This document shows, piece by piece, positions 3,722 through 36,398 of a stretch of DNA of 64,000 nucleotides. The stretch's first letter is position 1; each line of letters opens with the position of its first letter. Under the pieces are notes generated by a model. It was given only the letters and a program-made list of their open reading frames with translations, did not search any database and was not told the DNA's origin. Origin of the DNA: an uncultured Bacteroidales bacterium (GTDB lineage Bacteria > Bacteroidota > Bacteroidia > Bacteroidales > UBA932); NCBI GenBank assembly GCA_905233345.1, contig CAJODQ010000006.1, positions 1-64,000 of the forward strand, written 5' to 3'. Position numbers and translations under genes: made by a program.

Positions 3722-3896
3722 TGAAACAGCACTGACCCGGCGCTTTTCCACCTTATTGCAGACAGGCAGGTCTTCTGACTCGTTCCGCCTCAAGCGTCTT
3801 CCCGGCAAAAGCCAGTGACACAAGAATGCTTGAGGCTTCAAAGGAACATACAGCAGCGGGCACTGCTCCGGATTCACACCGGATTCCCTATTCTTT
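3722..3896 (-). promoter_or_regulatory. Cobalamin (AdoCbl) riboswitch in the 5' leader of the PepSY/TBDR operon
   Basis: The reverse complement contains GGGAATCCGGTGTGAATCCGGAGCAGTGCCCGCTGCTGT ... GTCACTGG ... and the B12 box GAGTCAGAAGACCTGCCTG. It is near-identical to the riboswitch at 17155-17300. It ends ~30 nt before the ATG of the PepSY gene at 3694. Confidence 0.8.
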
Positions 3897-3934
3897 CTCC
3901 ACCGTGGTCACGGCTTCGAACACCTGTTTGCGGA

Positions 3935-3975
3935 GGCAAAAGTAGCATTTTTGGTGCGAAAAAACAAAGGTGAAT
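3935..3975 (-). promoter_or_regulatory. Putative Bacteroidetes sigmaA promoter (-33 TTTG / -7 TAnnTTTG) for the riboswitch-PepSY-TBDR operon
   Basis: Minus-strand reading ...caccTTTGttttttcgcaccaaaaatgcTACTTTTGcctcc... has a TTTG and a TAnnTTTG spaced ~20 nt, immediately upstream of the riboswitch. Confidence 0.4.
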
Positions 3976-12422: not shown

Positions 12423-13034
12423 TTAAATGATTAATGATTCAAGGGGTTCGACAAGCACCGTGTCGGGGCCGATGACTTCGACCACACGGATCGGGGTGTT
12501 CGTCTTGAGGGTGTCACCGTCGGTGACGGCCCGGTATTCGCGCACGGCTTTGTTGATGGAGATCTGGACCTTGCCTTCTCCCTGCCGTTCGCCGGGAATC
12601 GTCAGATAGACGTTGCCGTTGCAGCCCACGGCCGACTTGTAGATGTCGATGTTGCCGGACTGCTGCATGCTGCTCAGCCATTTGAAGAGGTACATCACCA
12701 CGACCACCAGGGCCACGCCGATCAGCGCCGAGACGATCAGCAGCAGCGGAATCGAGTGAATCTTTTCCTGCAGCAGGATGGCCGACCAGCCGAAGCCGAG
12801 GATGAAGTTGACGAAATTGCGGAAGGTCAGCAGATTGGTTCCGCCTTCTACGGTAGCATCGGCTTCTTCGGAATCGAAGCCGGTGTCAACGTCGGTGTCG
12901 ATGCCGCCTTCGCCGGCGTCAGCGCCGATGAAGGTCAGGATGCTTTGGATCAGGAAGATCAGGGAAGCGGTCAGCGTGACGCCCCAGAGAATCTTCATGG
13001 CCACGGAAAGGGATGCCCACCAGGTTGTAATCAT
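12423..13034 (-). CDS. NfeD-like membrane protein (YqiJ-like flotillin partner)
   Basis: TM helices plus a C-terminal OB-fold region (GEGKVQISINKAVREYRAVTDGDTLKTNTPIRVVEVIGPDTVLVEP). Start re-placed at the internal ATG (MITTWW). Lies immediately upstream of flotillin. Confidence 0.8.
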   Translation of the reverse strand: MITTWWASLSVAMKILWGVTLTASLIFLIQSILTFIGADAGEGGIDTDVDTGFDSEEADATVEGGTNLLTFRNFVNFILGFGWSAILLQEKIHSIPLLLIVSALIGVALVVVVMYLFKWLSSMQQSGNIDIYKSAVGCNGNVYLTIPGERQGEGKVQISINKAVREYRAVTDGDTLKTNTPIRVVEVIGPDTVLVEPLESLII

Positions 13035-13140
13035 GTCTGAAAGGATTAATTTTCTGCAAATATACAAAAATTTATCGAAAAACAATAAAAAATTTAAAGA
13101 TTTTCTCGTATCCACAGGTGACTTGGGGGATTTTCCTTTT

Positions 13141-13150
13141 TTTTATATCT
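13141..13150 (+). promoter_or_regulatory. putative -7 promoter element (TATATCTTTG) for the heptose operon
   Basis: ttTATATCTTTGtaagatatattgaaccATG; a TAnnTTTG ~20 nt upstream of the hddA start. A divergent TATATTTG on the other strand lies ~22 nt upstream of the NfeD start. Confidence 0.4.
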
Positions 13151-13169
13151 TTGTAAGATATATTGAACC

Positions 13170-14216
13170 ATGGATACATCTGTCTATTATCGAAGCAAAG
13201 CGCCTTTCCGCCTGGGTATCGCCGGTGGCGGCACCGACGTGTCTCCCTATGCCGACCTGTACGGGGGCGCCGTGCTCAACGTGACCATCGACCGTTTCGC
13301 CTACGCCACGATTATCCCCACCGACAACGGCAAAATCCGCTTCGTCCACGTCAACGACAAAATCGTGCAGGAATACGACGCGGCTCCCTTCATCGAGCCG
13401 GCAGGGCCGCTGGTCCTGCAATGCGGCATCTACAACCGAATTGTCCGACAGTTCAACGACGGAAAACCGCTCTCATTCGAGCTTACCACCCAAATGGACG
13501 TTCCCTCCGGTTCCGGCCTGGGCACTTCCTCCACCCTGGTGGTCGCCATCCTCGGCGCTTTTGTGGAATGGCTCAACCTTCCGCTGGGCAAATACGATAT
13601 CGCGCGGCTGGCCTATGAGATCGAGCGCATCGACCTGGGACTGGCCGGTGGCCGTCAGGACCAGTATGCCGCCACTTTCGGCGGGGTCAACTTCATGGAG
13701 TTCCTGAGCGACGACCGCGTGATCGTCAATCCGCTGAGCATCCCCGACAACATCCTCAACGAATGGGCGCTCAACACCGTGCTGCTCTACACCAACAAGC
13801 GCCGTGAATCGGCCCGCATCATCGAAGAGCAGATGGCCAACGTCAAAAAGAAGAACAACGACTCCGTGGAGGCCATGCACCGGGTGAAGGAAGAGGCGTT
13901 CCGCATGAAGAAAAGCCTGCTCCAGAACAACCTCGGAGACCTGGGTCCCGCCCTCAACACGAGCTGGGTCAATAAGAAGAAGATGGCCGGCGGCATTTCC
14001 AACCCGTACATCGACCAACTCTACGAGACTGCCATCCATGCCGGAGCGACGGGCGGCAAGATCTCGGGCGCCGGTGGCGGCGGCTTTATGTTTTTCTATT
14101 GTCCGGGCAACACCCGGTACGCCGTGGAAGAGGCGCTCCTGGCGCTGCAGGTCGGCGAAGTATATGATTTTGAATTCAGCCAGGGAGGCTTGACAACATG
14201 GACCGTAAACAAGTAA
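13170..14216 (+). CDS. hddA: D-glycero-alpha-D-manno-heptose 7-phosphate kinase (GHMP kinase)
   Basis: 348 aa. GHMP ATP-binding motif PSGSGLGTSSTLVVAILGA, and C-terminal GGKISGAGGGGFMFFY. Co-located with gmhA and hddC/gmhB. Confidence 0.8.
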   Translation: MDTSVYYRSKAPFRLGIAGGGTDVSPYADLYGGAVLNVTIDRFAYATIIPTDNGKIRFVHVNDKIVQEYDAAPFIEPAGPLVLQCGIYNRIVRQFNDGKPLSFELTTQMDVPSGSGLGTSSTLVVAILGAFVEWLNLPLGKYDIARLAYEIERIDLGLAGGRQDQYAATFGGVNFMEFLSDDRVIVNPLSIPDNILNEWALNTVLLYTNKRRESARIIEEQMANVKKKNNDSVEAMHRVKEEAFRMKKSLLQNNLGDLGPALNTSWVNKKKMAGGISNPYIDQLYETAIHAGATGGKISGAGGGGFMFFYCPGNTRYAVEEALLALQVGEVYDFEFSQGGLTTWTVNK

Positions 14217-14788
14217 TTTCTTCCCGCCTGCGGGCGCACATCGATACCCTTTCCCTGCTGGAGCAGGATGAAATCCTCAAAGCAGCCGTAGCCACGGCCG
14301 TCGAAAAGATCGTCGCCTGTTTCCGCAGCGGTGGCCGTGTGTATTTCTGCGGCAACGGCGGCAGCGCCGCCGACGCCCAGCACCTGGCCGCCGAGTTTTC
14401 CGGCCGCTTCTATTTCGACCGCCCCGTGCTCCCCGCCGATGCCCTGCATTGCAACAGCTCCTACCTGACCGCCGTCGCCAACGACTACGGTTATGAAAAA
14501 GTGTTCGCCCGGCTCATCTCGGGCCTGGGCCGCAAAGGCGACATCCTGGTGGGCATTTCCACCTCGGGTAACTCGAAAAACATCCTCCAGGCCTTTGACG
14601 TCTGCAAGGAACAAGGTCTCTATTCCATTGCCCTGACCGGCGCATCCGGCGGCAAGATGCGCGACGCAGCCGACCTGCTGATCAACGTCCCGTCGAACGA
14701 CACGCCCCGTATCCAGGAGGCACACATCACGGTGGGCCACATCATCTGCGAACTGGTCGAAAAGGATATTTTCGGAGAAAAGCAATAA
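14198..14788 (+). CDS. gmhA: phosphoheptose isomerase (SIS domain)
   Basis: 196 aa. GRVYFCGNGGSAADAQHLAAEF ... ISTSGNSKNI are SIS-domain and GmhA signatures. Overlaps the hddA stop (ATG...TAA). Confidence 0.85.
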   Translation: MDRKQVISSRLRAHIDTLSLLEQDEILKAAVATAVEKIVACFRSGGRVYFCGNGGSAADAQHLAAEFSGRFYFDRPVLPADALHCNSSYLTAVANDYGYEKVFARLISGLGRKGDILVGISTSGNSKNILQAFDVCKEQGLYSIALTGASGGKMRDAADLLINVPSNDTPRIQEAHITVGHIICELVEKDIFGEKQ

Positions 14789-15984
14789 TGGAAGCGATCG
14801 TCCTGGCCGGCGGAATGGGAACGCGGCTGCGCAGCGCCGTCCCCGACTTGCCCAAGTGCATGGCACCCGTGGCCGGACGTCCTTTCCTGGCCTGGCTGCT
14901 CGACGACCTCGAAGCGGCGGGCTTCAACCATATTATCCTTTCGCTGGGCTATCGGCACGAGGCCATTGAAGACTGGGTGGCAGCCCGGAAGAACCGGGCG
15001 CGCATCAGCTGCGTCGTGGAAGCCGAGCCCCTGGGAACGGGCGGCGGCGTGCGGCTGGCCCTTCAGAAGGCCGAAGCGCACGATGTTTTCGTGCTGAACG
15101 GCGACACCTGGTTCGGCATGGACTATGCCGCCATGGCGCGTTTCCACCAGCAACAAGGTCTGCCGGCCACGCTCGCCCTCAAGCCCCTGCGTGATTTCGA
15201 CCGCTACGGGGAAGTCTGCTGCACGGCGGAGGGACGCATCACTGCCTTCCGGGAAAAACAGCCCTGTGCGCAGGGCCTGATCAACGGCGGCGTCTACCTG
15301 CTGCAACGCGACGCCCTGGCAGGCTGCCCGGAGCGCTTCTCCCTGGAGCGCGACTTCTTCGAGCCGCTGGCCGCCCGGCAGCAGCTCGCGGGCTTCCGTT
15401 CGGAGGGCTATTTCATCGATATCGGCATCCCCAGTGACTATGCCCGGGCCCAGCGGGACTTCGCTTCCGGCGCGTTCCACCCCTATCCCTACGACGCCCT
15501 GCTGCTCGACCGCGACGGTGTGATCAACGTGCTCCGTCCTGCCGATTATGTGAAGAATATCGGGGAATTCGTGTTCTGCGAAGGGGCGCTCGAAGCCCTG
15601 CGGCTCGTCAATCCCCTGTTCCGGCGCATCGTCATCGTCACCAACCAGCGCGGCGTGGGCCGAGACCTGATGACGGAAGCCGACCTGGAAGAAGTCCACG
15701 CCTGGATGCTGGACCGCATTCGCGAAGCCGGCGGCCGTATCGACAAGATCTACATCTGCACCGACAACGACAACAGCAGCCCGCGCCGCAAGCCCAACAT
15801 CGGCATGGCGCTGGAAGTGCGCGCCGACTATCCCGACGTCGACTTCGACCGCAGCTGGTTCGTGGGTGACAGCGTCTCCGACCTCGAATTCGCCCGCCGC
15901 GCGGGCATTCCGGCCTTCCGCGTCGAAGGAAAGCAGGACCTGCTGGCCTTCGCCCGCCAAACCCTTTCATCCGTCCAATCATGA
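14788..15984 (+). CDS. hddC/gmhB: bifunctional D-glycero-alpha-D-manno-heptose 1-phosphate guanylyltransferase / D,D-heptose 1,7-bisphosphate phosphatase (HddC-GmhB fusion)
   Basis: N-terminus MEAIVLAGGMGTRLRSAVPDLPKCMAPVAGRPFL is a nucleotidyltransferase G-x-G-T-R motif. C-terminus LLLDRDGVINV...VIVTNQRGVGR...FVGDSVSDLEFARRAG carries HAD motifs I-III of GmhB. Confidence 0.8.
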   Translation: MEAIVLAGGMGTRLRSAVPDLPKCMAPVAGRPFLAWLLDDLEAAGFNHIILSLGYRHEAIEDWVAARKNRARISCVVEAEPLGTGGGVRLALQKAEAHDVFVLNGDTWFGMDYAAMARFHQQQGLPATLALKPLRDFDRYGEVCCTAEGRITAFREKQPCAQGLINGGVYLLQRDALAGCPERFSLERDFFEPLAARQQLAGFRSEGYFIDIGIPSDYARAQRDFASGAFHPYPYDALLLDRDGVINVLRPADYVKNIGEFVFCEGALEALRLVNPLFRRIVIVTNQRGVGRDLMTEADLEEVHAWMLDRIREAGGRIDKIYICTDNDNSSPRRKPNIGMALEVRADYPDVDFDRSWFVGDSVSDLEFARRAGIPAFRVEGKQDLLAFARQTLSSVQS

Positions 15985-17111
15985 GAATCGCATACCTTTC
16001 CACTTTCTACCCGTTCCGCGGGGGCATCGCCCAGTTCAACGCCAATCTCCTGGAAGAACTGGGTCGCGAACACACCGTCAAGGCCTTCACCTTCACCCGG
16101 CAGTATCCCAACTTCCTGTTCCCCGGCAAGACCCAGTACGTCACGCCGGAAGACAAGGCCAAACCCGTCGACAGCGAAGCCGTGCTCGACACGGCCAACC
16201 CGTTCAACTGGTGCGCCGCCGCCCGCAAGATCGCCGCTTGGAAACCCGACCTGGTGGTCGTGAAGTACTGGATGAGCTACCTGGCGCCTTCACTGGGCAT
16301 GGTGGCGCGCCGCCTGCGCAAACGCGGCATCCCGACCATCGCCATCCTCGACAATGTGATTCCCCACGAAGCCAAGTTCTTCGACAAGCCTTTCTCGCGC
16401 TGGTTCCTGAAGCAGTGCGGCGGCTGCGTCGCCATGAGCCAGTCGGTGCTGCGCGACATGCAGTCCCTGACGCCCGACAAGCCCTACGTGCTGCAGGCCC
16501 ATCCGCTCTACGACCACTTCGGCCAGAAGATGGACCAGCTGACCGCCCGGAAGGAACTCGGGCTCGATCCGAAGCTCCGCACCCTGCTGTTCTTCGGCCT
16601 GATCCGTGACTACAAGGGCCTGGACCTGCTGATCGACGCCATGCCCCTGCTGGGACCGGACTACCAGCTGGTGATTGCCGGCGAGAGCTATGGCAGTTTC
16701 GAGAAATACGACACCCAGATTGCCGCGTCCGGCTGCGCCGACCGCATCCATGTCTTCAACCGCTACATCGACGACGAGGAAGTGCCCCGCTTTTTCTCCG
16801 CGGCCGACCTTTGCGTGCTGCCCTACAAGAGTGCGACCCAGAGCGGCATCACGGCCATCGCCCTGCACTTCGACGTGCCGCTGGTGGCCACGCCCGTGGG
16901 CGGCCTGGCCGAGAGCGTCGGAGAGCCCGGCCTGGGGGTGATGGCCACCGAGGCCTCAGCCGAAGCCATCGCCGAAGCCATCCGTCATTACTTCGACGGC
17001 AGCCCCGAGGCCTTCGTCACCAACATCCGGGAAGTCAAGCGTACCCAGACCTGGGCTGCTTTCGCCGACGCCGTGCTGCGCGCCGCGCAAATGGCCGGAT
17101 CGACCCGTTGA
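15981..17111 (+). CDS. glycosyltransferase family 4 (GT-B, retaining)
   Basis: 376 aa. The C-terminal half has the GT4 E-x7-E-like region (...LVATPVGGLAESVGEPGLGVMA...). Overlaps the hddC/gmhB stop, so it is probably in the same operon. Confidence 0.8.
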   Translation: MRIAYLSTFYPFRGGIAQFNANLLEELGREHTVKAFTFTRQYPNFLFPGKTQYVTPEDKAKPVDSEAVLDTANPFNWCAAARKIAAWKPDLVVVKYWMSYLAPSLGMVARRLRKRGIPTIAILDNVIPHEAKFFDKPFSRWFLKQCGGCVAMSQSVLRDMQSLTPDKPYVLQAHPLYDHFGQKMDQLTARKELGLDPKLRTLLFFGLIRDYKGLDLLIDAMPLLGPDYQLVIAGESYGSFEKYDTQIAASGCADRIHVFNRYIDDEEVPRFFSAADLCVLPYKSATQSGITAIALHFDVPLVATPVGGLAESVGEPGLGVMATEASAEAIAEAIRHYFDGSPEAFVTNIREVKRTQTWAAFADAVLRAAQMAGSTR

Positions 17112-17140: not shown

Positions 17141-17148
17141 GTATATTT
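17141..17148 (+). promoter_or_regulatory. putative -7 promoter element (TATATTTG) driving the B12 riboswitch/locus
   Basis: gcgTATATTTGtatcgcatcagg lies immediately upstream of the riboswitch. Confidence 0.4.
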
Positions 17149-17154
17149 GTATCG

Positions 17155-17300
17155 CATCAGGTTAAGGGAACCGGGTGAAAATCCCGGACAGTTCCCGCTG
17201 CTGTGAGTTCCAAAGCGTCACGGTATTCTCCGCCACTGGGCGTTGCCTGGGAAGGCGCCGCGTACGGAACGAGTCAGAAGACCTGCCTGCTGCCTTTGTA
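17155..17300 (+). promoter_or_regulatory. Cobalamin (AdoCbl) riboswitch
   Basis: AGGGAACCGGGTGAAAATCCCGGACAGTTCCCGCTGCTGTGAG ... CGCCACTGGGCG ... GGGAAGGCGC ... and the B12 box GAGTCAGAAGACCTGCCTGCTG. It precedes the btu locus. Confidence 0.85.
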
Positions 17301-17339
17301 AATTATGGACCTGCGGCGAATGGGTCGTGATTGACTTTT

Positions 17340-18431
17340 ATGACCAAACTCTTTATACCTATGCGCAAACTATCTCTCCGGGGAGTCCTCGGACTCGCCT
17401 TGGCCATCGTTATGGCCGGAAGCCTGGCTATCAGCTGCAGTATTGATCTTGATTCCCAATACACGCAACTCCAGGAAATTGCTGAAGAAATTCAAAGCAG
17501 CGATGACGGCCTGATCAGCGTCACTTCGCTCACCACGGGCGACTACATCCTCAAATTCAAGGACCGCGGCCGTGTATCCATTCCCGCCATGCCCGGCCAG
17601 GACAACGCCATCAAAAGCGTTATCGAAAGTGACGACGACTTTGTCTTTGTTTTCGCTGACGGCTCGACCATCGCGCTTCCGCGCTACTACGAAACTTATG
17701 TGCTGACTTTCGAAGACAAGGATTACAAAGGTCCGGCCAACACCAGAACCTACTGGAGCTCGATGATCGACGAACCGCAGTACGGCGGTCCCATCCTCTA
17801 TGGAGACGGCTGCACTTGGGCTGACCAGTATAATACCTGGCTCTCCGGCACAGTGCTCCCTTACGACGCTACGACCTGGTCCGGCGGTCTGTCCGGCGGC
17901 GGCATCGCCATCTCCAACTATGGCAACGGCATGCTGGCCGGTGCCGACTACACCCGGCAGCTCGAAGTGTACAACCCGGCTTTGGACGGTGCCGGACGCA
18001 AGGGCTGCGGCAACAACGGTTCCGACAACTTTGCCATTATCTATGACGCAGGCTACTGGGGCACCAATCCGGCCGCAATCACCATGACGGACGGTAAACC
18101 TCGTGTCGTCGAATCGGTCTACGTGAACAACACCTGCTACACGATGAATTTCCTGGTTAACGGCGACGCCTACAATCCGCCCATGGCGGCTGACGGCTAT
18201 TTCAAGGTCGTTGCCACCGGCTATGTCGATAATGAAATCACTGGCACCCTCGATTTCGTCCTTGCCAGCAACGATGAATATGTGACTTACTGGGCCAAAT
18301 GGAGACTGGCCGAACTGGGCGCCGTCGACAAGATCACCTTCATGATCTACGGCTCGGATGATCTGTACGGTGACTGGGGCTTCAACGCACCGGCTTACTT
18401 CGCCATCGACGACATCGCCGTCCGCAAATAA
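17340..18431 (+). CDS. surface lipoprotein, DUF4465-like (candidate BtuH-type corrinoid-binding protein), first gene of the B12 locus
   Basis: Signal peptide and lipobox LAISC. No enzymatic motifs. Position directly after a cobalamin riboswitch and upstream of btuB/btuG. The family assignment rests on context and on my memory of the DUF4465/BtuH description. Confidence 0.6.
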   Translation: MTKLFIPMRKLSLRGVLGLALAIVMAGSLAISCSIDLDSQYTQLQEIAEEIQSSDDGLISVTSLTTGDYILKFKDRGRVSIPAMPGQDNAIKSVIESDDDFVFVFADGSTIALPRYYETYVLTFEDKDYKGPANTRTYWSSMIDEPQYGGPILYGDGCTWADQYNTWLSGTVLPYDATTWSGGLSGGGIAISNYGNGMLAGADYTRQLEVYNPALDGAGRKGCGNNGSDNFAIIYDAGYWGTNPAAITMTDGKPRVVESVYVNNTCYTMNFLVNGDAYNPPMAADGYFKVVATGYVDNEITGTLDFVLASNDEYVTYWAKWRLAELGAVDKITFMIYGSDDLYGDWGFNAPAYFAIDDIAVRK

Positions 18432-18446
18432 GTCTGGAAAGCCTGC

Positions 18447-19985
18447 ATGCGGCGTCTTTCCATATACGTTTTACTGATCGTTTCGCTCTTTGGAGCGAGC
18501 GGGTGTCCACAGGGGGCGGATGAGGGTCTGCCCCCTGTCATCACCCTGCCCGACGGCAACAGCTATTCGGTCGAACGCGGAGAAAGCCTCACGCTTTCTC
18601 CGGTATTTGCCAATCTGACCCCCACCGCCCGGATCCAGTGGCTCCGCAACGGGCAGGTGGTCGGAAGCGGCACCAGCTTCATCTTCCAGGGGGAAGAAGT
18701 GGGAGTTTTCTACTTCACCGTGGAGGTAACCACCGAATATGGAAAGGCAGCCAAAGAAATCCGCATCAACGTCCGACAGGAAGAACAACCTCCGACGCCG
18801 CCGGTCCCTCCGGAGCCACCGGATCCCCCGGGACCGACACCTACGCCGCCAGACTCCACACTCTCACCGGTCCTGCAGGCCGCCTATCTGTTTGAACAGA
18901 AGCAGTATAACGTGTCGCAGGGACGCAGCATCCGCCTGCAGCCCCTGGATATCGACAGCACCCATCATTTCCATTTCGACTGGTTCGTCGACGGAAAGCT
19001 TATGCAGGAAGGCGACGCAGCGCTCTACCGCTTTGAAGCCACGGAGCAGGGCACCCATACGGTGATCCTGCAGGGATCATTGGACGAAGGCGGCGTGCGG
19101 CACGACACGCTTTCGGTCGTGGTCTGCCCGCCGGAAGGCACCTTCCGCCGCGCGTCCTCTGCCACCAGCAGTCCGTATGCCGACCAGGTGCTGCTGTACC
19201 TGCCGGCGCCCGGCCAGTTTATCAATGAAAACTACACGGCCACGACACAGGAGGAAGCCTGCGCCTATGCGGCGGGGCAGCTGAAAGAAAACAAATACGT
19301 CTCCCTCGGCGCTTTCGGCGGAACGCTCGTGCTGGGCTTCGACCACAGCGTCGCCAACGACGGGGCGTACAATTTCGCCGTCAAACACAACGCCTATACC
19401 AACAATTCGGAACCCGGTATCGTCTGGGTCTCTCAGGATGAAAATGGCGACGGCTTGCCCAACGACACCTGGTACGAACTCAAGGGTTCTGAATACGGTC
19501 TTGACGGCACAGTACAGGACTATGCCGTAACCTACTATCGCCCCGCGGCTCCGGGCCAGCCTGTGGCCTGGACCGACAACCGCGGCGGCAGCGGCAGCAT
19601 CGACTACCTGGCGCAATACCACAAACAGGACTACTACTACCCGAACTGGGTCGGAGCGGACCGGTATACGCTCCGCGGCACGCGCCTGGAAGCCCGCAAC
19701 TACGACCAGTCCGGCCGCGGCACTTACTGGGTCAATCCGGACTACGACTGGGGCTATGCCGACAATTTCAACGCCACCGACATGCTGCCCGACGTGGCGA
19801 CAGGCATCACGCGGGGCTGCAACCATTTTAAGATCTCCAACGCCGTGACCTATGACGGCCAGCCGGCGAACCTGCAGTACATCGACTTCGTGAAGGTACA
19901 GACCGGCCTCAACGCCAAGAGCGGCTGGCTCGGCGAAGTGTCGACCGAAGTTTTCCGCGTCATCGACTACAACCTGGTGAAATGA
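18447..19985 (+). CDS. surface lipoprotein with N-terminal Ig-like domain, Pro-rich linker (PPTPPVPPEPPDPPGPTPTPP) and a large C-terminal domain of unknown function
   Basis: 512 aa. Lipoprotein signal LFGASGC. Sits between the BtuH-like gene and btuB under the riboswitch. Confidence 0.65.
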   Translation: MRRLSIYVLLIVSLFGASGCPQGADEGLPPVITLPDGNSYSVERGESLTLSPVFANLTPTARIQWLRNGQVVGSGTSFIFQGEEVGVFYFTVEVTTEYGKAAKEIRINVRQEEQPPTPPVPPEPPDPPGPTPTPPDSTLSPVLQAAYLFEQKQYNVSQGRSIRLQPLDIDSTHHFHFDWFVDGKLMQEGDAALYRFEATEQGTHTVILQGSLDEGGVRHDTLSVVVCPPEGTFRRASSATSSPYADQVLLYLPAPGQFINENYTATTQEEACAYAAGQLKENKYVSLGAFGGTLVLGFDHSVANDGAYNFAVKHNAYTNNSEPGIVWVSQDENGDGLPNDTWYELKGSEYGLDGTVQDYAVTYYRPAAPGQPVAWTDNRGGSGSIDYLAQYHKQDYYYPNWVGADRYTLRGTRLEARNYDQSGRGTYWVNPDYDWGYADNFNATDMLPDVATGITRGCNHFKISNAVTYDGQPANLQYIDFVKVQTGLNAKSGWLGEVSTEVFRVIDYNLVK

Positions 19986-21952
19986 TCCTGACCCTGCTGC
20001 TGATGCTGATGCTGCCGGCCTCGCCGCCAGACACGCTGGCGCTCGACGCCTCCGTGGTGTCCGCGTTCCGCCAGCCCGAAAAGATCATTCCCGCACAGAC
20101 CCTGCAGGGCGAGCAGCTGGAAAAACTCAACGCGCTCTCCGTGGCCGACGCCATCCGCTACTTCTCGGGCGTCCAGATCAAGGACTACGGCGGCATCGGC
20201 GGCCTGAAAACCATCAATGTCCGCAGCATGGGCACCCAGCACGTAGGCGTATTTTATGACGGCATCCAGCTGGGCAACGCCCAGAACGGGCAGATCGACC
20301 TGGGCAAGTATTCGCTCGAAAACATGGAGTCGGTGACCCTCTACAACGGGCAGAAGAGCACCGCTGTGCAGTCGGCCAAGGACTATGCCTCGGCCAGCGC
20401 CGTCTATCTCCAGACCCGAATGCCGGTGTTCAGCGGAAAGCGCCGCACCAACCTGAAAGCCACACTGGCGGGCGGCTCGTTCAGCACCATCAATCCCTCC
20501 GTGCTCTGGGAGCAGAAACTGGGCAACAGCGTCTCGAATTCCTTCAACGCCGAGTTTCTGACCACAAGCGGCAAATACAAGTTTACCTACCGGAAGAAAG
20601 ACGGCTACGACACCACGGCCGTGCGCCAGAACGGCGACGTGCGGGCCCTCCGCATCGAAGAGGGCCTCTTCGGCCGGATTCCGGAAGGGCAGTGGCGCCT
20701 CAAATTCTATTTCTACGATTCAGAGCGCGGCTACCCCGGCGCCTTCGTGCGCGAAGAACCGGGCAAGTTCCGCCACGAAGACCGGCAGTGGGATACGGAT
20801 TTCTTCACCCAGGGTTCCTTCTTCAAGAAATGGGGCGACTACCGCCTCAACGCCAGCTTCAAGTACGCCTACGACTACCTGCACTACCTGTCTGACCCGC
20901 GGCTCGACGTCTCCACGATGTATGTGGACAACCACTACCGGCAGCAGGAAGCCTACCTGTCGGTGGCCCAGTCCTATGATATTTTCAAATGGTGGGACGT
21001 GGACCTGGCGGCAGACTGGCAGTTCAACACGCTTGACGCCGACCTGGTGAACTTCGTGTATCCTTCGCGCAACACCCTGCTGGCAGCGCTGTCCACCTCG
21101 CTGCGCTGGCCGAAGCTCAAGCTGCAGGGCAGCGTACTCTACACCTTCGTCGACGACCAGGCCCGCGAAGCGGGCGCCGCGGCGGAAAGCCGCAGCGTCT
21201 GGACCCCCACCGCCGTGTTGCAGTTCATCCCGTTCCGCGACAAGAACTTCTCCATCCGGGCCTTCTACAAGCGCATTTTCCGCATGCCGACCCTCAACGA
21301 CCTCTACTATACCTTCATCGGCAACAAATACCTGAAGCCCGAGTTCAGCACCCAGTACGACGTGGGCCTCACCTGGGACAAATACTGGACCCGCGGCATC
21401 TTCAAGAAACTGAACCTTACCGTCGACGGCTACTACAACGTGGTGGAGAACAAGATCATCGCCACGCCTGCCTCCAACCAGTTCCAGTGGACGATGGTCA
21501 ACCTCGGCCTGGTGAAGATCCGCGGCATCGACGCGGCCGTCGGCACGGCACTGGCACTGGGCCCCGTCACGGCCGACCTGCGCGCCACCTACACCTACCA
21601 GAAAGCCCAGGACTTCACCGACCCGACGAGTCCCTGGTACGGCGGCCAGATCCCCTACATCCCCTGGCACAGTGGTTCCTTCACCGCTGCGTTCAGCTAC
21701 GCGGGCTGGAACCTCAACTACAGCTTCATCTATACGGGTGAACGCTACGAATCGGTGGCCAACATCCCCGAAAACCATGCCCAACCCTGGTATACCAGCG
21801 ATCTGTCGCTCTCACACAATTTCCCGCTGGGCAAGCACGCGCTTTGCGGCACGCTCGAGGTCAACAACATTTTCAACCAACAATACGAAGTTGTGCAATG
21901 TTATCCGATGCCCGGAACGAATTTTCGATTAATTTTGTCTTTCCTTTTGTAA
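19982..21952 (+). CDS. btuB: TonB-dependent receptor, BtuB-like (vitamin B12/corrinoid outer-membrane transporter)
   Basis: 656 aa. Plug domain (...NALSVADAIRYFSGVQIKDYGGIGGLKTINVRSMGTQHVGVFYDGIQLGNAQNGQIDLGKY...) followed by a beta-barrel ending ...YPMPGTNFRLILSFLL. Small size is typical of BtuB. Immediately followed by a BtuG-like gene. Confidence 0.85.
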   Translation: MILTLLLMLMLPASPPDTLALDASVVSAFRQPEKIIPAQTLQGEQLEKLNALSVADAIRYFSGVQIKDYGGIGGLKTINVRSMGTQHVGVFYDGIQLGNAQNGQIDLGKYSLENMESVTLYNGQKSTAVQSAKDYASASAVYLQTRMPVFSGKRRTNLKATLAGGSFSTINPSVLWEQKLGNSVSNSFNAEFLTTSGKYKFTYRKKDGYDTTAVRQNGDVRALRIEEGLFGRIPEGQWRLKFYFYDSERGYPGAFVREEPGKFRHEDRQWDTDFFTQGSFFKKWGDYRLNASFKYAYDYLHYLSDPRLDVSTMYVDNHYRQQEAYLSVAQSYDIFKWWDVDLAADWQFNTLDADLVNFVYPSRNTLLAALSTSLRWPKLKLQGSVLYTFVDDQAREAGAAAESRSVWTPTAVLQFIPFRDKNFSIRAFYKRIFRMPTLNDLYYTFIGNKYLKPEFSTQYDVGLTWDKYWTRGIFKKLNLTVDGYYNVVENKIIATPASNQFQWTMVNLGLVKIRGIDAAVGTALALGPVTADLRATYTYQKAQDFTDPTSPWYGGQIPYIPWHSGSFTAAFSYAGWNLNYSFIYTGERYESVANIPENHAQPWYTSDLSLSHNFPLGKHALCGTLEVNNIFNQQYEVVQCYPMPGTNFRLILSFLL

Positions 21953-21957
21953 CGAAG

Positions 21958-23100
21958 ATGAAACGTCTCTGCCTGCTGCTGCTTTTGCCGGTCCTCCTGT
22001 TTTCCGGCTGTCGGACCATCGAACCGGTCACTCCGTCTGAAAAGACGGACGTTGGCGGTGGCGACGCGGGCGATATCGCCGGATTCTACCTGCTGAACGA
22101 AGGCAATATGGGCAGCAACAAGTGTACGCTCGACTACTACGACTACGCAAGCGGCATCTACAGGAAGAACATTTATGCAGAGCGCAATCCCGGCGTGGTG
22201 CAGGAACTGGGCGATGTGGGCAACGACCTGCAGATCTATGGCAAGCGGCTCTACGCCGTGGTCAACTGCTCGAACCTCGTGGAGGTGATGGATGCCACCA
22301 CCGCCCGGCACATCGGCCAGGTGTCGGTGCCCAACTGCCGCTATATCGTGTTCAAGGATCAGTATGCTTATGTGAGCTCTTATGCCGGTCCGGTGGAGGT
22401 TGATCCCAACTACCGCCTGGGCTATGTGGCCAAGATCGATACGGCCTCGCTGCGCGTAGTGGACACCTGCGTGGTGGGCTACCAGCCGGAAGAGATGGTC
22501 ATCAAAGGCAACAAACTCTACGTAGCCAACTCAGGCGGCTACCGCGTGCCCGACTATGACAATACGGTGTCCGTCATCGACCTGTCCTCTTTCAAGGAAA
22601 CCAAAAAGATCGAGGTAGCGCCCAACCTGCACCGCATGGAACTCGACGCCTACGGCAAGATCTGGGTATCCAGCCGGGGCGATTACTACGATATCGAGCC
22701 GATGACCTATATCATCGACACCCAAACCGACCAGGTGATCGAATGCATGGAACTGCTCGCCTGCTCCGACATGACCCTCTGCGGCGACTCGCTCTATGTC
22801 TACAACAACGCCTGGAGCTATGTCACGCAGACCAGTGACGTGAACTACGCCATCGTCAACGTCAAGACCCATCAGGTGGTGACGCGCCGCTTCATCACCG
22901 ACGGCACGGAAGCCCAGTTCCAAAATCCCTACGGCATCGCCGTCAACCCCAACACCCGGGAAATCTTTGTGACCGATGCCCGCGACTACATCACCCCGGG
23001 CAAAATCTATTGCTACACACCGGAAGGCCGGCTGAAATGGAGCACCAACACCGGTGACATCCCCTCGCGCATCGCCTTTACGCATCAACGCCTGCAATGA
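21958..23100 (+). CDS. btuG: BtuG-like YncE-type beta-propeller surface lipoprotein (B12-capturing partner of BtuB)
   Basis: Start at the internal ATG (MKRLCLLLLLPVLLFSGC lipobox). Repeated beta-propeller blades (...KLYVANSGGYRVPDYDNTVSVIDL..., ...REIFVTDARDY...). Position directly downstream of btuB. Confidence 0.75.
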   Translation: MKRLCLLLLLPVLLFSGCRTIEPVTPSEKTDVGGGDAGDIAGFYLLNEGNMGSNKCTLDYYDYASGIYRKNIYAERNPGVVQELGDVGNDLQIYGKRLYAVVNCSNLVEVMDATTARHIGQVSVPNCRYIVFKDQYAYVSSYAGPVEVDPNYRLGYVAKIDTASLRVVDTCVVGYQPEEMVIKGNKLYVANSGGYRVPDYDNTVSVIDLSSFKETKKIEVAPNLHRMELDAYGKIWVSSRGDYYDIEPMTYIIDTQTDQVIECMELLACSDMTLCGDSLYVYNNAWSYVTQTSDVNYAIVNVKTHQVVTRRFITDGTEAQFQNPYGIAVNPNTREIFVTDARDYITPGKIYCYTPEGRLKWSTNTGDIPSRIAFTHQRLQ

Positions 23101-24233
23101 GACGGTCGCTGCACATCCTCCCGCTGATCGCCCTCCTCGGGCTGCTGCTCGCCTCCTGCGGAGGCCGGCAGAGCACCGCAAAGCCCGACTTGCGCGCCGC
23201 CGACACCATCCGTTACGCCCGGAACCTCCATATCGAATACTTCGACGACTACGTCTCGGTCCGCATCCGCGACCCCTGGGACACGCTGCGGCAGCGGCAG
23301 CACTATGTGCTGGTCGACCGTACCCGGCCCCTGCCCGCGGGACTGCCGGAAGGCGGCATCGTGATCCGCGTCCCCGTGGAGAAAGCCGTCATCTACACCT
23401 CCGTCCATACCGCCATCGCGGAAGAACTGGGTGCGCTGGACCGCGTCTGCGGCGTCTGCGAGCCGCAGTACATCATCTCGCCGGTGGTGCTGCAGCGCAT
23501 TGACGAAGGCCGCATCGCCGATCTGGGCGTGTCGACCTCACCCAACGTGGAGAAGATCATCGACATCGGTACCGAGATGATCATCGCCTCGCCCTTCGAG
23601 AACAGCGGTTACGGCTCCGCTGAGAAACTCGGCATCCCCATCGTGGAAGCCGCCGACTACATGGAAAATCATCCGCTGGGGCGCACGGAGTGGGTGCTCT
23701 TCTATGGCCTGCTGCTGGGCGAGCGTGAAGCCGCCGAGCAGGTCTTCGCCCGTACCGAGGCCCGTTACAACGAACTCAAGGCCCTGGCTGCGCAGGTGGA
23801 TCATCGCCCCACTGTCGTGTTGGAGCGCCGCTACGGCACTTCCTGGGCGGTCCCGGCTGGTGAGAGCTATATCGGCGTAATGCACGCCGACGCCGGCGCG
23901 GATTATATCTTCCGCTATCTGAAAGGCGCCCGGAGCGTCCACTTCACCTTCGAATCCGTCTTCGACCAGGCCGGCGACGCCGATTTCTGGCTCCTCAAAT
24001 ATGACACCCGCGCGCCGCTGACCTACCGGCTCCTGGCCCAGGAATACGAACCCTACGCCAACTTCCGTCCCTGGAAAGAACGCCGCGTCTTCGCCTGCAA
24101 CACCATCACTTCCACATATTACGATGACATTACCCTCCACCCCGACCGGGTGCTGGAAGACCTGATCGCCATCTATCATCCCGACCTGCTGCCCGGGCAC
24201 GTGCAGCGCTATTATTTCCCGCTCGATGAATAA
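23097..24233 (+). CDS. btuF: ABC transporter periplasmic substrate-binding protein, BtuF/FecB (cluster A, TroA-like) family
   Basis: 378 aa lipoprotein (LLASCGG). Cluster A substrate-binding fold. Followed by FecCD permease and ATPase genes. Confidence 0.8.
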   Translation: MRRSLHILPLIALLGLLLASCGGRQSTAKPDLRAADTIRYARNLHIEYFDDYVSVRIRDPWDTLRQRQHYVLVDRTRPLPAGLPEGGIVIRVPVEKAVIYTSVHTAIAEELGALDRVCGVCEPQYIISPVVLQRIDEGRIADLGVSTSPNVEKIIDIGTEMIIASPFENSGYGSAEKLGIPIVEAADYMENHPLGRTEWVLFYGLLLGEREAAEQVFARTEARYNELKALAAQVDHRPTVVLERRYGTSWAVPAGESYIGVMHADAGADYIFRYLKGARSVHFTFESVFDQAGDADFWLLKYDTRAPLTYRLLAQEYEPYANFRPWKERRVFACNTITSTYYDDITLHPDRVLEDLIAIYHPDLLPGHVQRYYFPLDE

Positions 24234-25233
24234 GCGCAAACTCCAATGGATCTATGCAGGGCTTTCCCTGGCCGTGGTCGCGCTCTTCTGCGGCGGGCTC
24301 TTCTACGGTGCCGTGCACATCCCGTTCAAGGACGTAGTGCAGATCCTTCTGCGCAACTACGAAGGGAAGGAGGCCTGGCAGCACATCGTGCTGGAATCGC
24401 GCCTCCCGCAGACCGTTACCGCCCTGCTGGCCGGCGCTTCGCTCGCCGTCAGCGGCCTGATGCTCCAGACCCTCTTCAAGAACCCGCTGGCCGGACCGTC
24501 GATCCTGGGTATCAGCGACGGCGCCAACCTGGGCGTGGCCATTGCCATGATCTATCTGGGAGCCGCCAGCTACCTGACCACCATCGTGGCCGCACTGATC
24601 GGCGCCTTCGCGGTGCTGCTCATCATCCTGGGCTTCTCGCGGAAAGTGTCGAGCAACGTGATGCTGCTGATTATCGGCATCATGGTCGGCTACCTGGCTT
24701 CGTCGGTCATCGCCATCCTCAACTTCCATGCGTCGGCCGACAAGGTGCATCAGTTCGTGATGTGGGGCATGGGCGATTTCAGTGGTGTTTCGCTCTCGAA
24801 GCTGCCCTGGCTGGCTGGCTTCTCCGTGGCCGGACTCCTCTGCGCCCTGCTGCTCACCAAGCCGCTCAACGCGCTGCTCCTGGGCGACGCCTACGCCGCC
24901 AACCTGGGTGTCAACGTGCGCCGGGCCCGTGTACTCATTCTTATCTGCACCGGCGTGCTGACCGCCGTGGTCACCGCATTCTGCGGGCCCATCTCCTTCA
25001 TCGGGCTGGCCGTGCCGCACATCGCCCGCCTGCTGCTGGGCAGTTCCAACCACCGGCACCTGCTGCCCGTTACGCTGCTGGCCGGCGCCTGTGTCGCCCT
25101 GCTGTGCAGTATGCTGACCGTCCTGCCGGGTTCCGGCAATGTGCTCCCGCTGAGCGCCATCACGCCCATCATCGGCGCACCGGTCATCATCTACGTCATC
25201 GTCAACCGCAAGAATATCCATTACTTCAATTGA
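24226..25233 (+). CDS. btuC: FecCD-family ABC permease (BtuC-like)
   Basis: 335 aa, ~9 TM helices. ...LAGASLAVSGLMLQTLFKNPLAGPSILGISDGANLG... is characteristic of FecCD/BtuC. Confidence 0.9.
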   Translation: MNKRKLQWIYAGLSLAVVALFCGGLFYGAVHIPFKDVVQILLRNYEGKEAWQHIVLESRLPQTVTALLAGASLAVSGLMLQTLFKNPLAGPSILGISDGANLGVAIAMIYLGAASYLTTIVAALIGAFAVLLIILGFSRKVSSNVMLLIIGIMVGYLASSVIAILNFHASADKVHQFVMWGMGDFSGVSLSKLPWLAGFSVAGLLCALLLTKPLNALLLGDAYAANLGVNVRRARVLILICTGVLTAVVTAFCGPISFIGLAVPHIARLLLGSSNHRHLLPVTLLAGACVALLCSMLTVLPGSGNVLPLSAITPIIGAPVIIYVIVNRKNIHYFN

Positions 25234-25234
25234 T

Positions 25235-26038
25235 ATGAAACGCGCCATCGCCATCAGCACCCACCAGCTCAGCATCGGCTACACCGGCCGGGGCGGACGG
25301 CGCGTGATCCATCCGGACCTCGACCTGCAGTTGCTTACGGGCGAAGTCACGGCCCTACTGGGCAGCAACGGCGCCGGCAAGAGCACCCTGCTCAAGACCC
25401 TCTGCGGCTTGCTGCCGTCCCTGCACGGCGACATTTTCATTGAAGGAAAACCCTTGGCCGGCTTCCGCTCCGGCGAACTCGCGACGCGGGTGGGCGTGGT
25501 GCTGACCGAGCGCACCCAGACCGGCGGCATCAGTGTCTACGACCTGGTCTCGCTGGGGCGCTATCCGCACACCGGCTTTTTCGGCACCCTGCGCGAGGAA
25601 GACCACGCCATCATCCAACAGGCCCTCATCACCGTCGGCATCGCCGACAAGGCGCAGCGCTTCATCTCCGAACTGAGCGACGGCGAGCGCCAGAAAGCCT
25701 TCATCGCCAAGGTTCTGGCGCAGGAATGCCCCATCATCCTGCTTGACGAACCCACCGCCTTCCTCGATGTCACCAGCCGCATGGAGACCATGATCACCCT
25801 GCGGCGGCTCGCCCACCGGGAAGGCAAAGCCATCCTGCTTTCCACCCACGACCTCGACACCGCGCTGCAACTGGCCGACAAACTCTGGCTCCAGCCCGCC
25901 AACCCGGCGGAAAACATGATCTGCGGCACGCCCGACCAACTGGTGGCCAATGGCGCCCTGACGCGTTTCTTCGGCAGCAAAACCCTCCGTTTCGATCCCG
26001 AAACCCGGAGGCTCGTTCCCGTCACCCGAAAAAAATAA
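25235..26038 (+). CDS. btuD: ABC transporter ATP-binding protein (BtuD/FecE-like)
   Basis: Walker A LLGSNGAGKST, signature LSDGERQ, Walker B ILLLDEPTAFLD. Confidence 0.9.
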   Translation: MKRAIAISTHQLSIGYTGRGGRRVIHPDLDLQLLTGEVTALLGSNGAGKSTLLKTLCGLLPSLHGDIFIEGKPLAGFRSGELATRVGVVLTERTQTGGISVYDLVSLGRYPHTGFFGTLREEDHAIIQQALITVGIADKAQRFISELSDGERQKAFIAKVLAQECPIILLDEPTAFLDVTSRMETMITLRRLAHREGKAILLSTHDLDTALQLADKLWLQPANPAENMICGTPDQLVANGALTRFFGSKTLRFDPETRRLVPVTRKK

Positions 26039-26991: not shown

Positions 26992-27497
26992 TGTGCTACC
27001 GTTGCATTGAAAATGTCATCCACGATTTTCTTGACGATGGTCTCGCAGAGCTGGTTCTCCACCATGTCGAGGGAGTTGTTGGAATCGTAGTCCTCGTAGG
27101 ACGCGAACGACTGCTCCAGGTTGTCTTCCGGATGAAGCACATTGGTGAAGACCACCTTGCAGGTGACGGTCAACCGGTTCATGGCGGCCACTTCATCGGC
27201 CGTAACGGCCGTGGCACGCACATCGTACGACTCGATGGTGACCAGCAGGTTCAGGTCTCCCTCTTCGGATACTTGCTCCAGCCTGGTGAGCTTGCGGTAT
27301 TTGTCGTTGAGTTCTTCGGTCAGCTGGTTTGCCAGGGAGGGATTGACTTTGGTCGCCCGGTTGACCACGGGCTCAATGCAGATGGTCTTGACATCCGACT
27401 GGATGGAGGTGCCGGAGAACGAATAGGAAATCTTGCACCCCGCCAGTAGCGGCAGCAGGGCAATCAGGCAGGCCAGGATGCGGATATGTCGTTTCAT
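26985..27497 (-). CDS. LptE-like lipoprotein (putative LPS-assembly lipoprotein)
   Basis: 170 aa. Lipobox LLAGCKISY. Size and position downstream of the sigma54 regulator follow the Bacteroidetes arrangement as I recall it; the family call is tentative. Confidence 0.55.
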
Positions 27498-28654: not shown

Positions 28655-28742
28655 ATTTGCAAAGTTACGAAAAAAAGTATTATCTTTGTATGATATTACC
28701 CGTAGTGGCAAAAACCAATAAATTTTCAAATAAACTGTTTAT

Positions 28743-30389: not shown

Positions 30390-30409
30390 CAAAAACATTT
30401 TTGTTATAA

Positions 30410-30450
30410 AAAAAGTGACCGGTTGGTGTATCAACCGGTCATTTTTTTAT
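30410..30450 (+). terminator. Rho-independent terminator
   Basis: aaaaaagTGACCGGTTGgtgtatCAACCGGTCAttttttt: perfect 10-bp stem followed by a T-run. An nrdD promoter -7 box TACCTTTG follows. Confidence 0.7.
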
Positions 30451-30532
30451 CTACCTTTGTAAAGGCTGTTGAGGCCATCTCCCCTAAAAAGGACTCTCAC
30501 ACATCACATAACCCCCTGGGGTACTGCACTTT

Positions 30533-36397: not shown

Positions 36398-36398
36398 C

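What the first reader, a model, noticed from the sequence alone, without database searches (positions are those of the whole stretch)
13170..17111. Compact GDP-D-glycero-alpha-D-manno-heptose biosynthesis cluster with an HddC::GmhB fusion and a GT4 transferase
HddA (GHMP kinase), GmhA and a single protein fusing the guanylyltransferase (HddC) and the HAD phosphatase (GmhB) reconstitute the four-step GDP-heptose pathway in three genes. A GT4 glycosyltransferase follows immediately. GDP-D,D-heptose is known from S-layer glycans and from capsular or LPS heptoses elsewhere. It is unexpected here, wedged between a flotillin operon and a B12 locus rather than in a capsule or LPS locus, and it implies a heptosylated glycoconjugate in this organism.
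Basis: partly seen in the sequence, partly recalled or inferred. Interest (0 to 1): 0.55.

Follow-up and report, generated by a model that had tools for sequence, protein, structure and literature searches.

The report
Conserved Bacteroidota GDP-heptose operon with glycosyltransferase
This is a real four-gene operon that most likely makes the activated seven-carbon sugar GDP-heptose and attaches it to an unknown cell-envelope molecule; both the enzyme fusion and the operon are common in Bacteroidota, so this copy is ordinary, although the product has never been identified.

Summary
Four translationally coupled genes sit behind one Bacteroidetes-type promoter: an HddA-type GHMP heptokinase, GmhA, one protein with an N-terminal HddC-type guanylyltransferase and a C-terminal GmhB-type HAD phosphatase, and a GT4-like glycosyltransferase. 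Catalytic motifs of both fusion domains are conserved, including the guanine-contacting glutamate of HddC.

The fusion is not unusual: about 91 of the best 150 representatives (50%-identity clusters) have the same architecture, including one in a Gram-positive-type polysaccharide locus. The position between flotillin and B12 genes carries no functional meaning, because relatives keep the cassette while their flanks differ.

The more interesting result concerns the glycosyltransferase. It belongs to a distinct, highly conserved family found in Bacteroidales, Flavobacteriales and Chitinophagaceae. In all 20+ loci examined it lies directly beside heptose-pathway genes, in several gene orders and with HddC and GmhB either fused or split.

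This points to a dedicated heptosyltransferase acting on a conserved acceptor, not a variable capsule. The acceptor is unknown. I favour an anionic envelope glycolipid such as the LPS inner core. I found no publication describing this module.

The parts
13146..13153 (+). Bacteroidetes-type -7 promoter box (TATCTTTG), 17 nt upstream of the hddA start codon
   Evidence: The pattern TAnnTTTG occurs 22 times in the window against 11.2 expected. There is none on the + strand between 13154 and 17141 (sequence). That this box is the promoter is inferred.
13170..14216 (+). [quoted passage not shown]
   Evidence: Pfam GHMP_kinases_N and _C. NCBIfam HddA E 3e-116, full length, 388 bits, below the cut-off of 600. 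PDB 4usm/4usk (WcbL), 3k85 and 4n3o at E 1e-97 to 1e-102.
14198..14788 (+). gmhA: sedoheptulose-7-phosphate isomerase (step 1)
   Evidence: SIS_2 E 8e-28. TIGR00441 gmhA E 1.8e-61, 206.7 bits against a cut-off of 209.45. It overlaps hddA by 19 nt.
14788..15462 (+). HddC domain of the fusion protein (aa 1-225): heptose-1-phosphate guanylyltransferase (step 4)
   Evidence: NF049965 HddC E 1.9e-54. Y. pseudotuberculosis HddC 6jq8/5xhw E 3e-38 over aa 2-225. GGxGTRL, K23, E78-A-E-P-L-G-T-G-G and S52 match the guanine-binding motif EXEPLGTGGA with Glu80 and Ser53 of YpHddC.
15496..15927 (+). GmhB domain of the same protein (aa 237-380): HAD-IIIA heptose-1,7-bisphosphate 7-phosphatase (step 3). The ORF ends at 15984.
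   Evidence: NF006506 E 4.4e-34, TIGR01656, TIGR01662 and NF050049. PDB GmhB 4pnh, 2gmw and 3l8h. HAD motifs D241xD243, T285-N-Q, K335 and D361/D365 are invariant or nearly so in 47 fusions. The zinc-loop Cys/His residues are absent.
15981..17111 (+). GT4-like retaining GT-B glycosyltransferase of a Bacteroidota-specific family; proposed dedicated GDP-heptose:acceptor alpha-heptosyltransferase
   Evidence: Pfam Glyco_transf_4 plus Glycos_transf_1. AF2 model with pLDDT 92.3. Foldseek top hits are MshA, GlgM, SPS and BshA; PimA, PglA, WaaG and PimB' rank lower. It overlaps the fusion gene by ATGA. Orthologues at 36-95% identity are always beside heptose genes.

Best explanation
One promoter drives a four-gene, translationally coupled operon.

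- GmhA isomerises sedoheptulose-7-P to D-glycero-D-manno-heptose-7-P.
- The GHMP kinase HddA phosphorylates C1 to give the alpha-1,7-bisphosphate.
- The C-terminal HAD domain of the fusion removes the 7-phosphate.

The fusion therefore joins two consecutive steps (3 and 4), which fixes their stoichiometry and could allow hand-over of the intermediate.

The last gene encodes a retaining GT4-like enzyme that is dedicated to this donor. It adds a single alpha-linked heptose to an acceptor that is conserved across Bacteroidota. The likeliest acceptor is an anionic, membrane-bound envelope glycolipid such as the Kdo-lipid A inner core.

Shown here: the domain identities, conserved catalytic residues, operon structure and conserved gene linkage. 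Inferred: every enzymatic activity, GT4 donor use and the acceptor.
For: - Domain and family matches for all five activities.
- Both active sites of the fusion are invariant or nearly so across 47 fusions at 31-75% identity.
- The guanine-contacting Glu of HddC and its EXEPLGTGGA motif are present.
- Gene overlaps and a single -7 box indicate one transcription unit.
- Close and distant relatives keep the same four-gene cassette with different flanks.
- Across Bacteroidales, Flavobacteriales and Chitinophagaceae, GT4 orthologues stay next to heptose genes in at least four gene orders, with HddC and GmhB fused or split.
- Five of five family members picked only for contig length show this linkage.
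- There is one glycosyltransferase and no flippase, polymerase or priming transferase.
- The GT4 N-terminal (acceptor) domain is uniformly cationic, with mean charge +8 and pI 9.5, while the C-domain is acidic, in 46 members.
Against: - No activity was measured.
- All NCBIfam equivalog scores are below curated cut-offs.
- The phosphatase domain scores higher on the beta-anomer GmhB model (117.6 bits) than on the alpha model (87.3 bits), so anomer preference rests on context.
- The GT4 lacks both glutamates of the usual GT4 EX7E motif.
- Its nearest solved structures act on small soluble acceptors (MshA, GlgM, SPS, BshA). Lipid-linked-acceptor enzymes rank lower.
- No LPS-core gene is consistently adjacent. 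LptE and LpxK are only nearby in some loci.
- I found no report of heptose in a Bacteroidota LPS core. The B. thetaiotaomicron LOS paper does not mention heptose.
Confidence: 0.68

Rival explanations
1. The GT4 glycosylates a small soluble, possibly phosphorylated, metabolite, as MshA, BshA, GlgM or sucrose-phosphate synthase do. The operon would then make a cytoplasmic heptoside (a solute, cofactor or thiol precursor) and not an envelope glycoconjugate.
For: The top Foldseek and HMM matches are MshA, GlgM, SPS and BshA, at E 1e-19 to 1e-15, against 1e-14 to 1e-13 for PimA, PglA, WaaG and PimB'. There is a single GT, no export genes, and a housekeeping genomic context. A cationic N-domain would also suit an anionic small acceptor.
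Against: Identity to those enzymes is only 13-19%, and GT4 fold ranking does not predict the acceptor. No second phosphatase or tailoring enzyme travels with the module. No heptoside metabolite is known from Bacteroidota (my knowledge).
Confidence: 0.15
2. The cluster feeds a strain-variable capsule, O-antigen or S-layer glycan assembled by genes elsewhere. These are the classical roles of GDP-D,D-heptose, and this is the first reader's frame.
For: The known GDP-heptose pathways serve such polymers: C. jejuni capsule, Y. pseudotuberculosis and E. coli O52 O antigens. The same fusion sits in a typical polysaccharide locus in L083. Muribaculaceae carry gmhA/gmhB/hddA in a variable capsule region.
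Against: The window's cluster has no Wzx/Wzy, priming transferase, export genes or heptose-modifying enzymes, and it is not in a variable region. The cassette and its GT4 are conserved at 65-95% identity across many Bacteroidales, and at 36-46% across classes, while the flanks change. Capsule loci do not behave that way.
Confidence: 0.1
3. The nucleotidyltransferase domain activates a different sugar or uses a different nucleotide (for example mannose-1-P, or CTP/UTP), so the product is not GDP-D,D-heptose.
For: The second-best model is mannose-1-P guanylyltransferase (167 bits against 184.7 for HddC), and the HddC score is below its cut-off. YpHddC itself accepts mannose-1-P in assays.
Against: The domain is fused to a GmhB-type phosphatase and always co-located with GmhA and an HddA-type kinase. 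The guanine-binding Glu and its motif are present.
Confidence: 0.05

Closest known systems
[quoted passage not shown] 2001, Valvano et al. 2002; cited from memory and)
   Same: It has the same four activities, the same enzyme families (SIS isomerase, GHMP kinase, HAD-IIIA phosphatase, RmlA/ManC-fold guanylyltransferase) and the same predicted product.
   Different: There the four enzymes are separate proteins and supply an S-layer glycan. Here steps 3 and 4 are one polypeptide, and the operon carries its own single glycosyltransferase in a housekeeping context.
Capsule and O-antigen heptose clusters of Campylobacter jejuni, Burkholderia pseudomallei (WcbL) and Yersinia pseudotuberculosis / E. 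coli O52 (HddC)
   Same: The kinase matches WcbL and C. jejuni HddA at E about 1e-100. The NTase domain matches YpHddC at E 3e-38 and has the guanine-binding Glu.
   Different: Those clusters sit in large variable polysaccharide loci with modifying enzymes (DmhA/B, epimerases), several GTs and export genes. None of these is present here.
HldE, the bifunctional kinase/adenylyltransferase of the ADP-L,D-heptose (beta) pathway
   Same: It is also a two-domain fusion within a nucleotide-heptose pathway.
   Different: It has unrelated folds (ribokinase-like kinase plus cytidylyltransferase-fold NTase), fuses non-consecutive steps 2 and 4, and makes the beta-anomer with ADP. Its product is used by inverting GT9 enzymes and sensed by ALPK1.
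Bacteroides thetaiotaomicron HddA (PDB 3k85) and GmhB (organism and capsule-locus placement from memory)
   Same: It shows that the alpha (GHMP-kinase) heptose route exists in Bacteroidales. The window kinase matches 3k85 at E 2e-102.
   Different: There, as I recall, the genes are separate and lie in a variable capsule locus. Here they form a conserved stand-alone cassette with a dedicated GT4.
Retaining GT4 glycosyltransferases MshA, BshA, GlgM, SPS, PimA, PimB' and WaaG
   Same: It has the GT-B two-Rossmann fold, the Arg/Lys pair in the C-domain (R209, K212) and a conserved His in the N-domain.
   Different: Identity is only 13-21%. Both EX7E glutamates are replaced (A285 and I293, within an invariant P-Y-x-x-A-T-Q-S-G motif). 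It also has family-specific invariant motifs (PxRGG, QYPxxxFPG, NxIPHE) and is exclusively linked to heptose genes.
WaaC/WaaF (GT9) LPS heptosyltransferases
   Same: They possibly have the same biological outcome: an alpha-linked heptose on the LPS inner core.
   Different: [quoted passage not shown] There is no sequence relationship, and an LPS role for the GT4 here is only a hypothesis.

Membership tests
[quoted passage not shown] | GmhA-type SIS sedoheptulose-7-P isomerase | tested here: met
   TIGR00441 E 1.8e-61, 206.7 bits, 3 bits under the curated cut-off. Three further GmhA models score at E 1e-50 to 1e-61. SIS_2 domain.
[quoted passage not shown] | GHMP-family (HddA/WcbL-type) heptose-7-P kinase, not a ribokinase-type HldA/HldE | tested here: met
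   GHMP N and C domains. HddA model E 3e-116, full length but below the cut-off. PDB heptokinases at E about 1e-100.
[quoted passage not shown] | GmhB: HAD-IIIA phosphatase with the DxD nucleophile motif, Thr, Lys and DD motifs | tested here: met
   D241xD243, T285, K335 and D361/D365 are conserved in 47 fusions. GmhB HMMs and PDB GmhBs match.
[quoted passage not shown] | Preference of the phosphatase for the alpha-anomer | tested here: inconclusive
   The beta-type model NF006506 scores 117.6 bits and the alpha-type NF050049 scores 87.3 bits, both below their cut-offs. The alpha assignment rests on the GHMP kinase context only.
[quoted passage not shown] | HddC guanylyltransferase with the motif EXEPLGTGGA, whose first Glu binds guanine N1/N2 | tested here: met
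   The window has E78-A-E-P-L-G-T-G-G-G aligned to YpHddC Glu80 and following residues, and S52 aligned to Ser53. E78 is at least 90% conserved in 47 fusions.
[quoted passage not shown] | Formation of GDP-heptose from sedoheptulose-7-P | not testable with these tools
   This needs the enzymatic assay.
CAZy GT4 retaining glycosyltransferases | GT-B fold with Glyco_transf_4 and Glycos_transf_1 domains | tested here: met
   Both Pfam domains score above their gathering thresholds. AF2 model pLDDT 92.3 and Foldseek probability 1.00 to many GT4 structures.
CAZy GT4 retaining glycosyltransferases | EX7E motif in the C-terminal domain | tested here: not met
   In the profile alignment to MshA, the two Glu positions align with the invariant A285 and with I293. 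I therefore call it GT4-like, a divergent subfamily.
Capsule / O-antigen polysaccharide locus | Priming transferase, Wzx/Wzy or ABC exporter, several GTs, and strain-level variability | tested here: not met
   None of these is within the operon or among the neighbouring genes scanned out to about 40.7 kb. The cassette is conserved across lineages.
LPS inner-core heptosylation | Transfer of heptose to Kdo-lipid A; genetic linkage to core or lipid A genes | tested here: inconclusive
   LptE lies 3-6 kb away in several Bacteroidales loci, and LpxK is nearby in L100. This linkage is not consistent. There is no GT9. The chemistry is not testable here.

The most novel reading that the evidence does not exclude
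The GT4-like enzyme may be the founding member of an uncharacterised Bacteroidota-wide heptosyltransferase family. [quoted passage not shown] That would be a GT9-independent, GDP-dependent route to a heptosylated LPS inner core, in a phylum whose best-studied members are described as lacking heptose.
Probability: 0.25. Interest if true: 0.6.

Novelty: new member of a known kind. Interest (0 to 1): 0.33.

Why it matters
For this window, the result is mainly a correct annotation: a complete alpha-route GDP-heptose operon in an uncultured rumen-type Bacteroidales genome. The fusion and the location are ordinary.

The wider point is that many Bacteroidota, including gut and rumen lineages, keep a stand-alone heptose pathway welded to one specific, unstudied glycosyltransferase. 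This predicts a conserved heptose-bearing envelope structure that has not been described.

If that structure is the LPS core or a major glycolipid, it would bear on outer-membrane integrity, phage and antibody recognition, and how commensal Bacteroidota present heptose to the host. It would also give a defined enzyme family to test.

Tried and rejected
- **Genome-contig scan.** I ran the single scan with the single fusion protein. It returned only one close relative plus GmhB-only hits, and no second scan was available. The taxonomic spread therefore had to be inferred from metagenome loci and source names.
- **Cluster look-ups.** The listing of cluster members gave no organism names. The exact window protein is not on record. 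CP075895.1 is not in the annotated collections.
- **Literature.** Eight searches found nothing on an HddC::GmhB fusion, on this GT4 family, or on heptose in Bacteroidota LPS cores or O-glycans. One search was badly framed and uninformative.
- **Structure tools.** The afdb50 fold library was unavailable. I did not model the fusion protein.
- **Horizontal transfer.** Rejected as an explanation for the location, because GC3 is indistinguishable from the neighbours and the synteny with flotillin is shared with relatives.
- **Assembly or frameshift artefact.** Rejected for the fusion, because hundreds of homologues have the same length and architecture.
- **Sigma-70 and terminator scans.** These were uninformative. 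Terminator-like sites were not enriched (6 found against 4.7 expected).


Full report
**What is in the sequence**

Four ORFs lie head to tail on the + strand at 13170-14216, 14198-14788, 14788-15984 and 15981-17111.
- The first has both GHMP kinase domains. It matches the HddA model over its full length (E 3e-116) and solved heptokinases (WcbL 4usm/4usk, 3k85, 4n3o) at E about 1e-100.
- The second is a SIS-domain protein. It scores 206.7 bits on the GmhA model, 3 bits under the curated cut-off.
- The third has an NTP_transferase domain at residues 1-225, with HddC as best model (E 1.9e-54) and Y. pseudotuberculosis HddC as best structure (E 3e-38). It has a HAD-IIIA/GmhB domain at residues 237-380, about ten residues further on.
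- The fourth has the two GT4 Pfam domains.

Every NCBIfam equivalog score is below its curated cut-off, so the names rest on best hit plus context.

**Operon structure**

The genes overlap by 19 nt, 1 nt (TAATG) and 4 nt (ATGA). A Bacteroidetes -7 box (TATCTTTG) lies 17 nt before the first ATG. No other box occurs on the + strand until 17142, where the leader of a cobalamin riboswitch (17142-17304) begins. GC3 of the four genes (0.76-0.86) equals that of the neighbours.

**The fusion**

An alignment of 47 fusion proteins at 31-75% identity keeps both active sites:
- NTase domain: GGxGTRL, K23, E78xEPLGTGG, N104-G-D and D211.
- HAD domain: D241xD243, T285-N-Q, R334-K-P and G360-D...D365.

The crystal-structure paper on YpHddC shows that Glu80 of the motif EXEPLGTGGA hydrogen-bonds guanine N1/N2, and that Ser53 also matters for GTP preference (PMC6981941). 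The window protein has E78-A-E-P-L-G-T-G-G-G and S52 at the aligned positions. GTP use is therefore well supported by sequence.

The phosphatase domain scores higher on the beta-type GmhB model than on the alpha-type model. The alpha assignment therefore comes only from the GHMP-type kinase. The domain also lacks the CxH...CxC zinc loop.

The fusion joins consecutive steps: the phosphatase product is the guanylyltransferase substrate. HldE, by contrast, fuses steps 2 and 4 of the ADP route.

**The fusion is common**

- A search of one representative per 50%-identity cluster found 2466 proteins at E <= 1e-30. About 91 of the best 150 are 386-471 aa proteins (two are longer) matched across both domains at 32-55% identity.
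- Reversed-order fusions also exist (P0317, P0340).
- A metagenome scan returned 80 loci. In most of those long enough to show neighbours, the fusion lies beside HddA and/or GmhA homologues.
- One human-gut locus at 36-44% GC carries the fusion inside a LytR-CpsA-Psr / Bac_transf / WecG polysaccharide locus, so the architecture is not confined to Bacteroidota.
- I found no paper that describes the fusion.

**The location is not informative**

The closest genome hit is a goat-reticulum Bacteroidales MAG with 88% identity and the same flotillin/NfeD-cassette order. Relatives at 74-77% identity keep flotillin, NfeD, DUF1508 and the identical four-gene cassette, but the GT4 is followed directly by NrdG/NrdD.

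In the window, that NrdD block lies beyond the B12 uptake locus and is inverted. More distant relatives (GT4 identity about 67%) have the same cassette between EamA/helicase and HTH genes, or between MatE and PspC/PadR. The cassette is the conserved unit, and the B12 neighbour is a local rearrangement.

**The glycosyltransferase**

Its homologues are highly conserved: 65-95% identity among many uncultured Bacteroidales. A profile search finds a family at about 37-46% identity, named by its sources as from Bacteroidales, Bacteroidota, Flavobacteriales and Chitinophagaceae.

In every locus examined, a family member is directly adjacent to at least two heptose-pathway genes. The loci are the window, L001, L003, L009-L017, L021, L028, L033, L036, L037, L040, L081 and L097-L103. 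The gene orders vary:
- HddA-GmhA-fusion-GT4
- GT4-HddA-GmhA-HddC(::)GmhB
- HddA-HddC-GT4
- GT4-GmhA-GmhB

HddC and GmhB are fused in some loci and split in others. Five family members chosen only for long contigs all showed the linkage. Persistence through rearrangement is strong evidence of a functional tie, namely that this enzyme uses the pathway's product.

**What kind of enzyme it is**

The AF2 model is confident (pLDDT 92.3) and has a GT-B fold. Foldseek ranks the structures as follows:
- First: MshA, GlgM, sucrose-phosphate synthase and BshA (E 1e-19 to 1e-15).
- Later: PimA, PglA, WaaG and PimB' (E about 1e-13).
- All share only 13-21% identity with the model.

Family-invariant residues include PxRGG, QYPxxxFPG, NxIPHE, the R209/K212 pair and P-Y-x-x-A-T-Q-S-G. 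Both glutamates of the usual EX7E motif are replaced. The N-terminal (acceptor) domain carries a mean net charge of +8 (pI 9.5) and the C-terminal domain -5, in all 46 members checked.

From general knowledge of peripheral GT-B enzymes, this polarity suits an anionic membrane surface or an anionic acceptor. I did not compute a control set of known enzymes, so this is a weak inference.

**Most likely mechanism and its rivals**

I consider the GDP-D,D-heptose pathway assignment well supported (about 0.85). The dedicated heptosyltransferase role of the GT4 is probable (about 0.65). The acceptor remains open.
- Against a capsule or O-antigen role: there is a single GT and no flippase, polymerase, priming or modifying genes, and the module is conserved across classes.
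- My preferred acceptor is a conserved anionic envelope glycolipid such as Kdo-lipid A. LptE or LpxK lie nearby in some loci. In non-Bacteroidales Bacteroidota the module often follows DUF4199 and an ArnC-like polyprenyl-phosphate glycosyltransferase. This linkage is loose.
- The main rival is a small soluble acceptor, suggested by the fold ranking.
- I found no published evidence for heptose in Bacteroidota cores. The B. thetaiotaomicron LOS study does not mention it.

**Verdict**

This window holds a typical member of a widespread but experimentally unstudied module. Interest in this instance is modest. The family-level question of what conserved molecule Bacteroidota heptosylate is worth an experiment.

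Noticed in passing
window 17142-26038: A complete B12 uptake unit sits behind a cobalamin riboswitch: DUF4465, PKD-like protein, TonB-dependent receptor, DUF5074, BtuF-like binding protein, FecCD permease and ABC ATPase. It is absent at this position in relatives L009-L012, where NrdG/NrdD follow the GT4. In the window, the sigma54-activator / 548-aa / NrdD block (27494-32689) lies beyond it and is inverted.
   Followed up: partly
window 3748-3942 (-) and 2276-3694 (-): A second cobalamin riboswitch (99 bits) lies upstream of a PepSY_TM-domain membrane protein, which is an unusual gene to be under B12 control.
   Followed up: no
window 12423-13115 (-): The mechanical start (GTG at 13115) of the NfeD-like ORF is probably too early. 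A -7 promoter box lies at 13057-13064 (-), inside the extended ORF, and homologues are 203 aa. The true start is probably the ATG at 13034.
   Followed up: partly
window 15981-17111 and alignments A2-A4: The GT4 family lacks both glutamates of the EX7E motif (replaced by A285 and I293). Instead it has an invariant P-Y-x-x-A-T-Q-S-G, plus invariant PxRGG, QYPxxxFPG and NxIPHE motifs. Its N-domain is strongly cationic and its C-domain acidic in all 46 members.
   Followed up: partly
window 15760-15800 (fusion protein residues about 325-337): The GmhB domain lacks the CxH...CxC zinc-binding loop of E. coli GmhB ('YICTDNDNSSPRRKP'). Most other fusions retain a partial C...C-RKP.
   Followed up: no
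L021 2353-3812, L028, L033, L081, L097, L102 3299-4793, L005 5180-6121: In non-Bacteroidales Bacteroidota the GT4-heptose module is often preceded by a DUF4199 membrane protein and a 312-aa ArnC-like GT2 with two C-terminal transmembrane helices (a polyprenyl-phosphate glycosyltransferase type, 53-72% identical between loci). No homologue is present in the window.
   Followed up: partly
L083 1-15236 (human gut metagenome, 36-44% GC): The same NTase::HAD fusion (459 aa), beside a GHMP kinase, lies inside a LytR-CpsA-Psr / Bac_transf / UDP-glucose dehydrogenase / WecG-GT4 / pyruvyltransferase polysaccharide locus. The fusion is therefore also used in classical polysaccharide loci outside Bacteroidota.
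   Followed up: partly
P0317, P0340; L031 1033-2207: Reversed-order arrangements exist, with GmhB N-terminal and HddC C-terminal, as well as much longer proteins containing the fusion (P0251, 932 aa; P0325, 638 aa).
   Followed up: no
L101 10058-12436: In one locus an MBOAT acyltransferase and a DUF1574-like protein directly follow the GT4-HddA-GmhA-fusion module. This hints at O-acylation of the same product in that organism.
   Followed up: no
window 35078-40751 (-): A MacB-type tripartite efflux operon: outer-membrane factor, HlyD-family adaptor, two MacB_PCD/FtsX permeases and an ABC ATPase.
   Followed up: no
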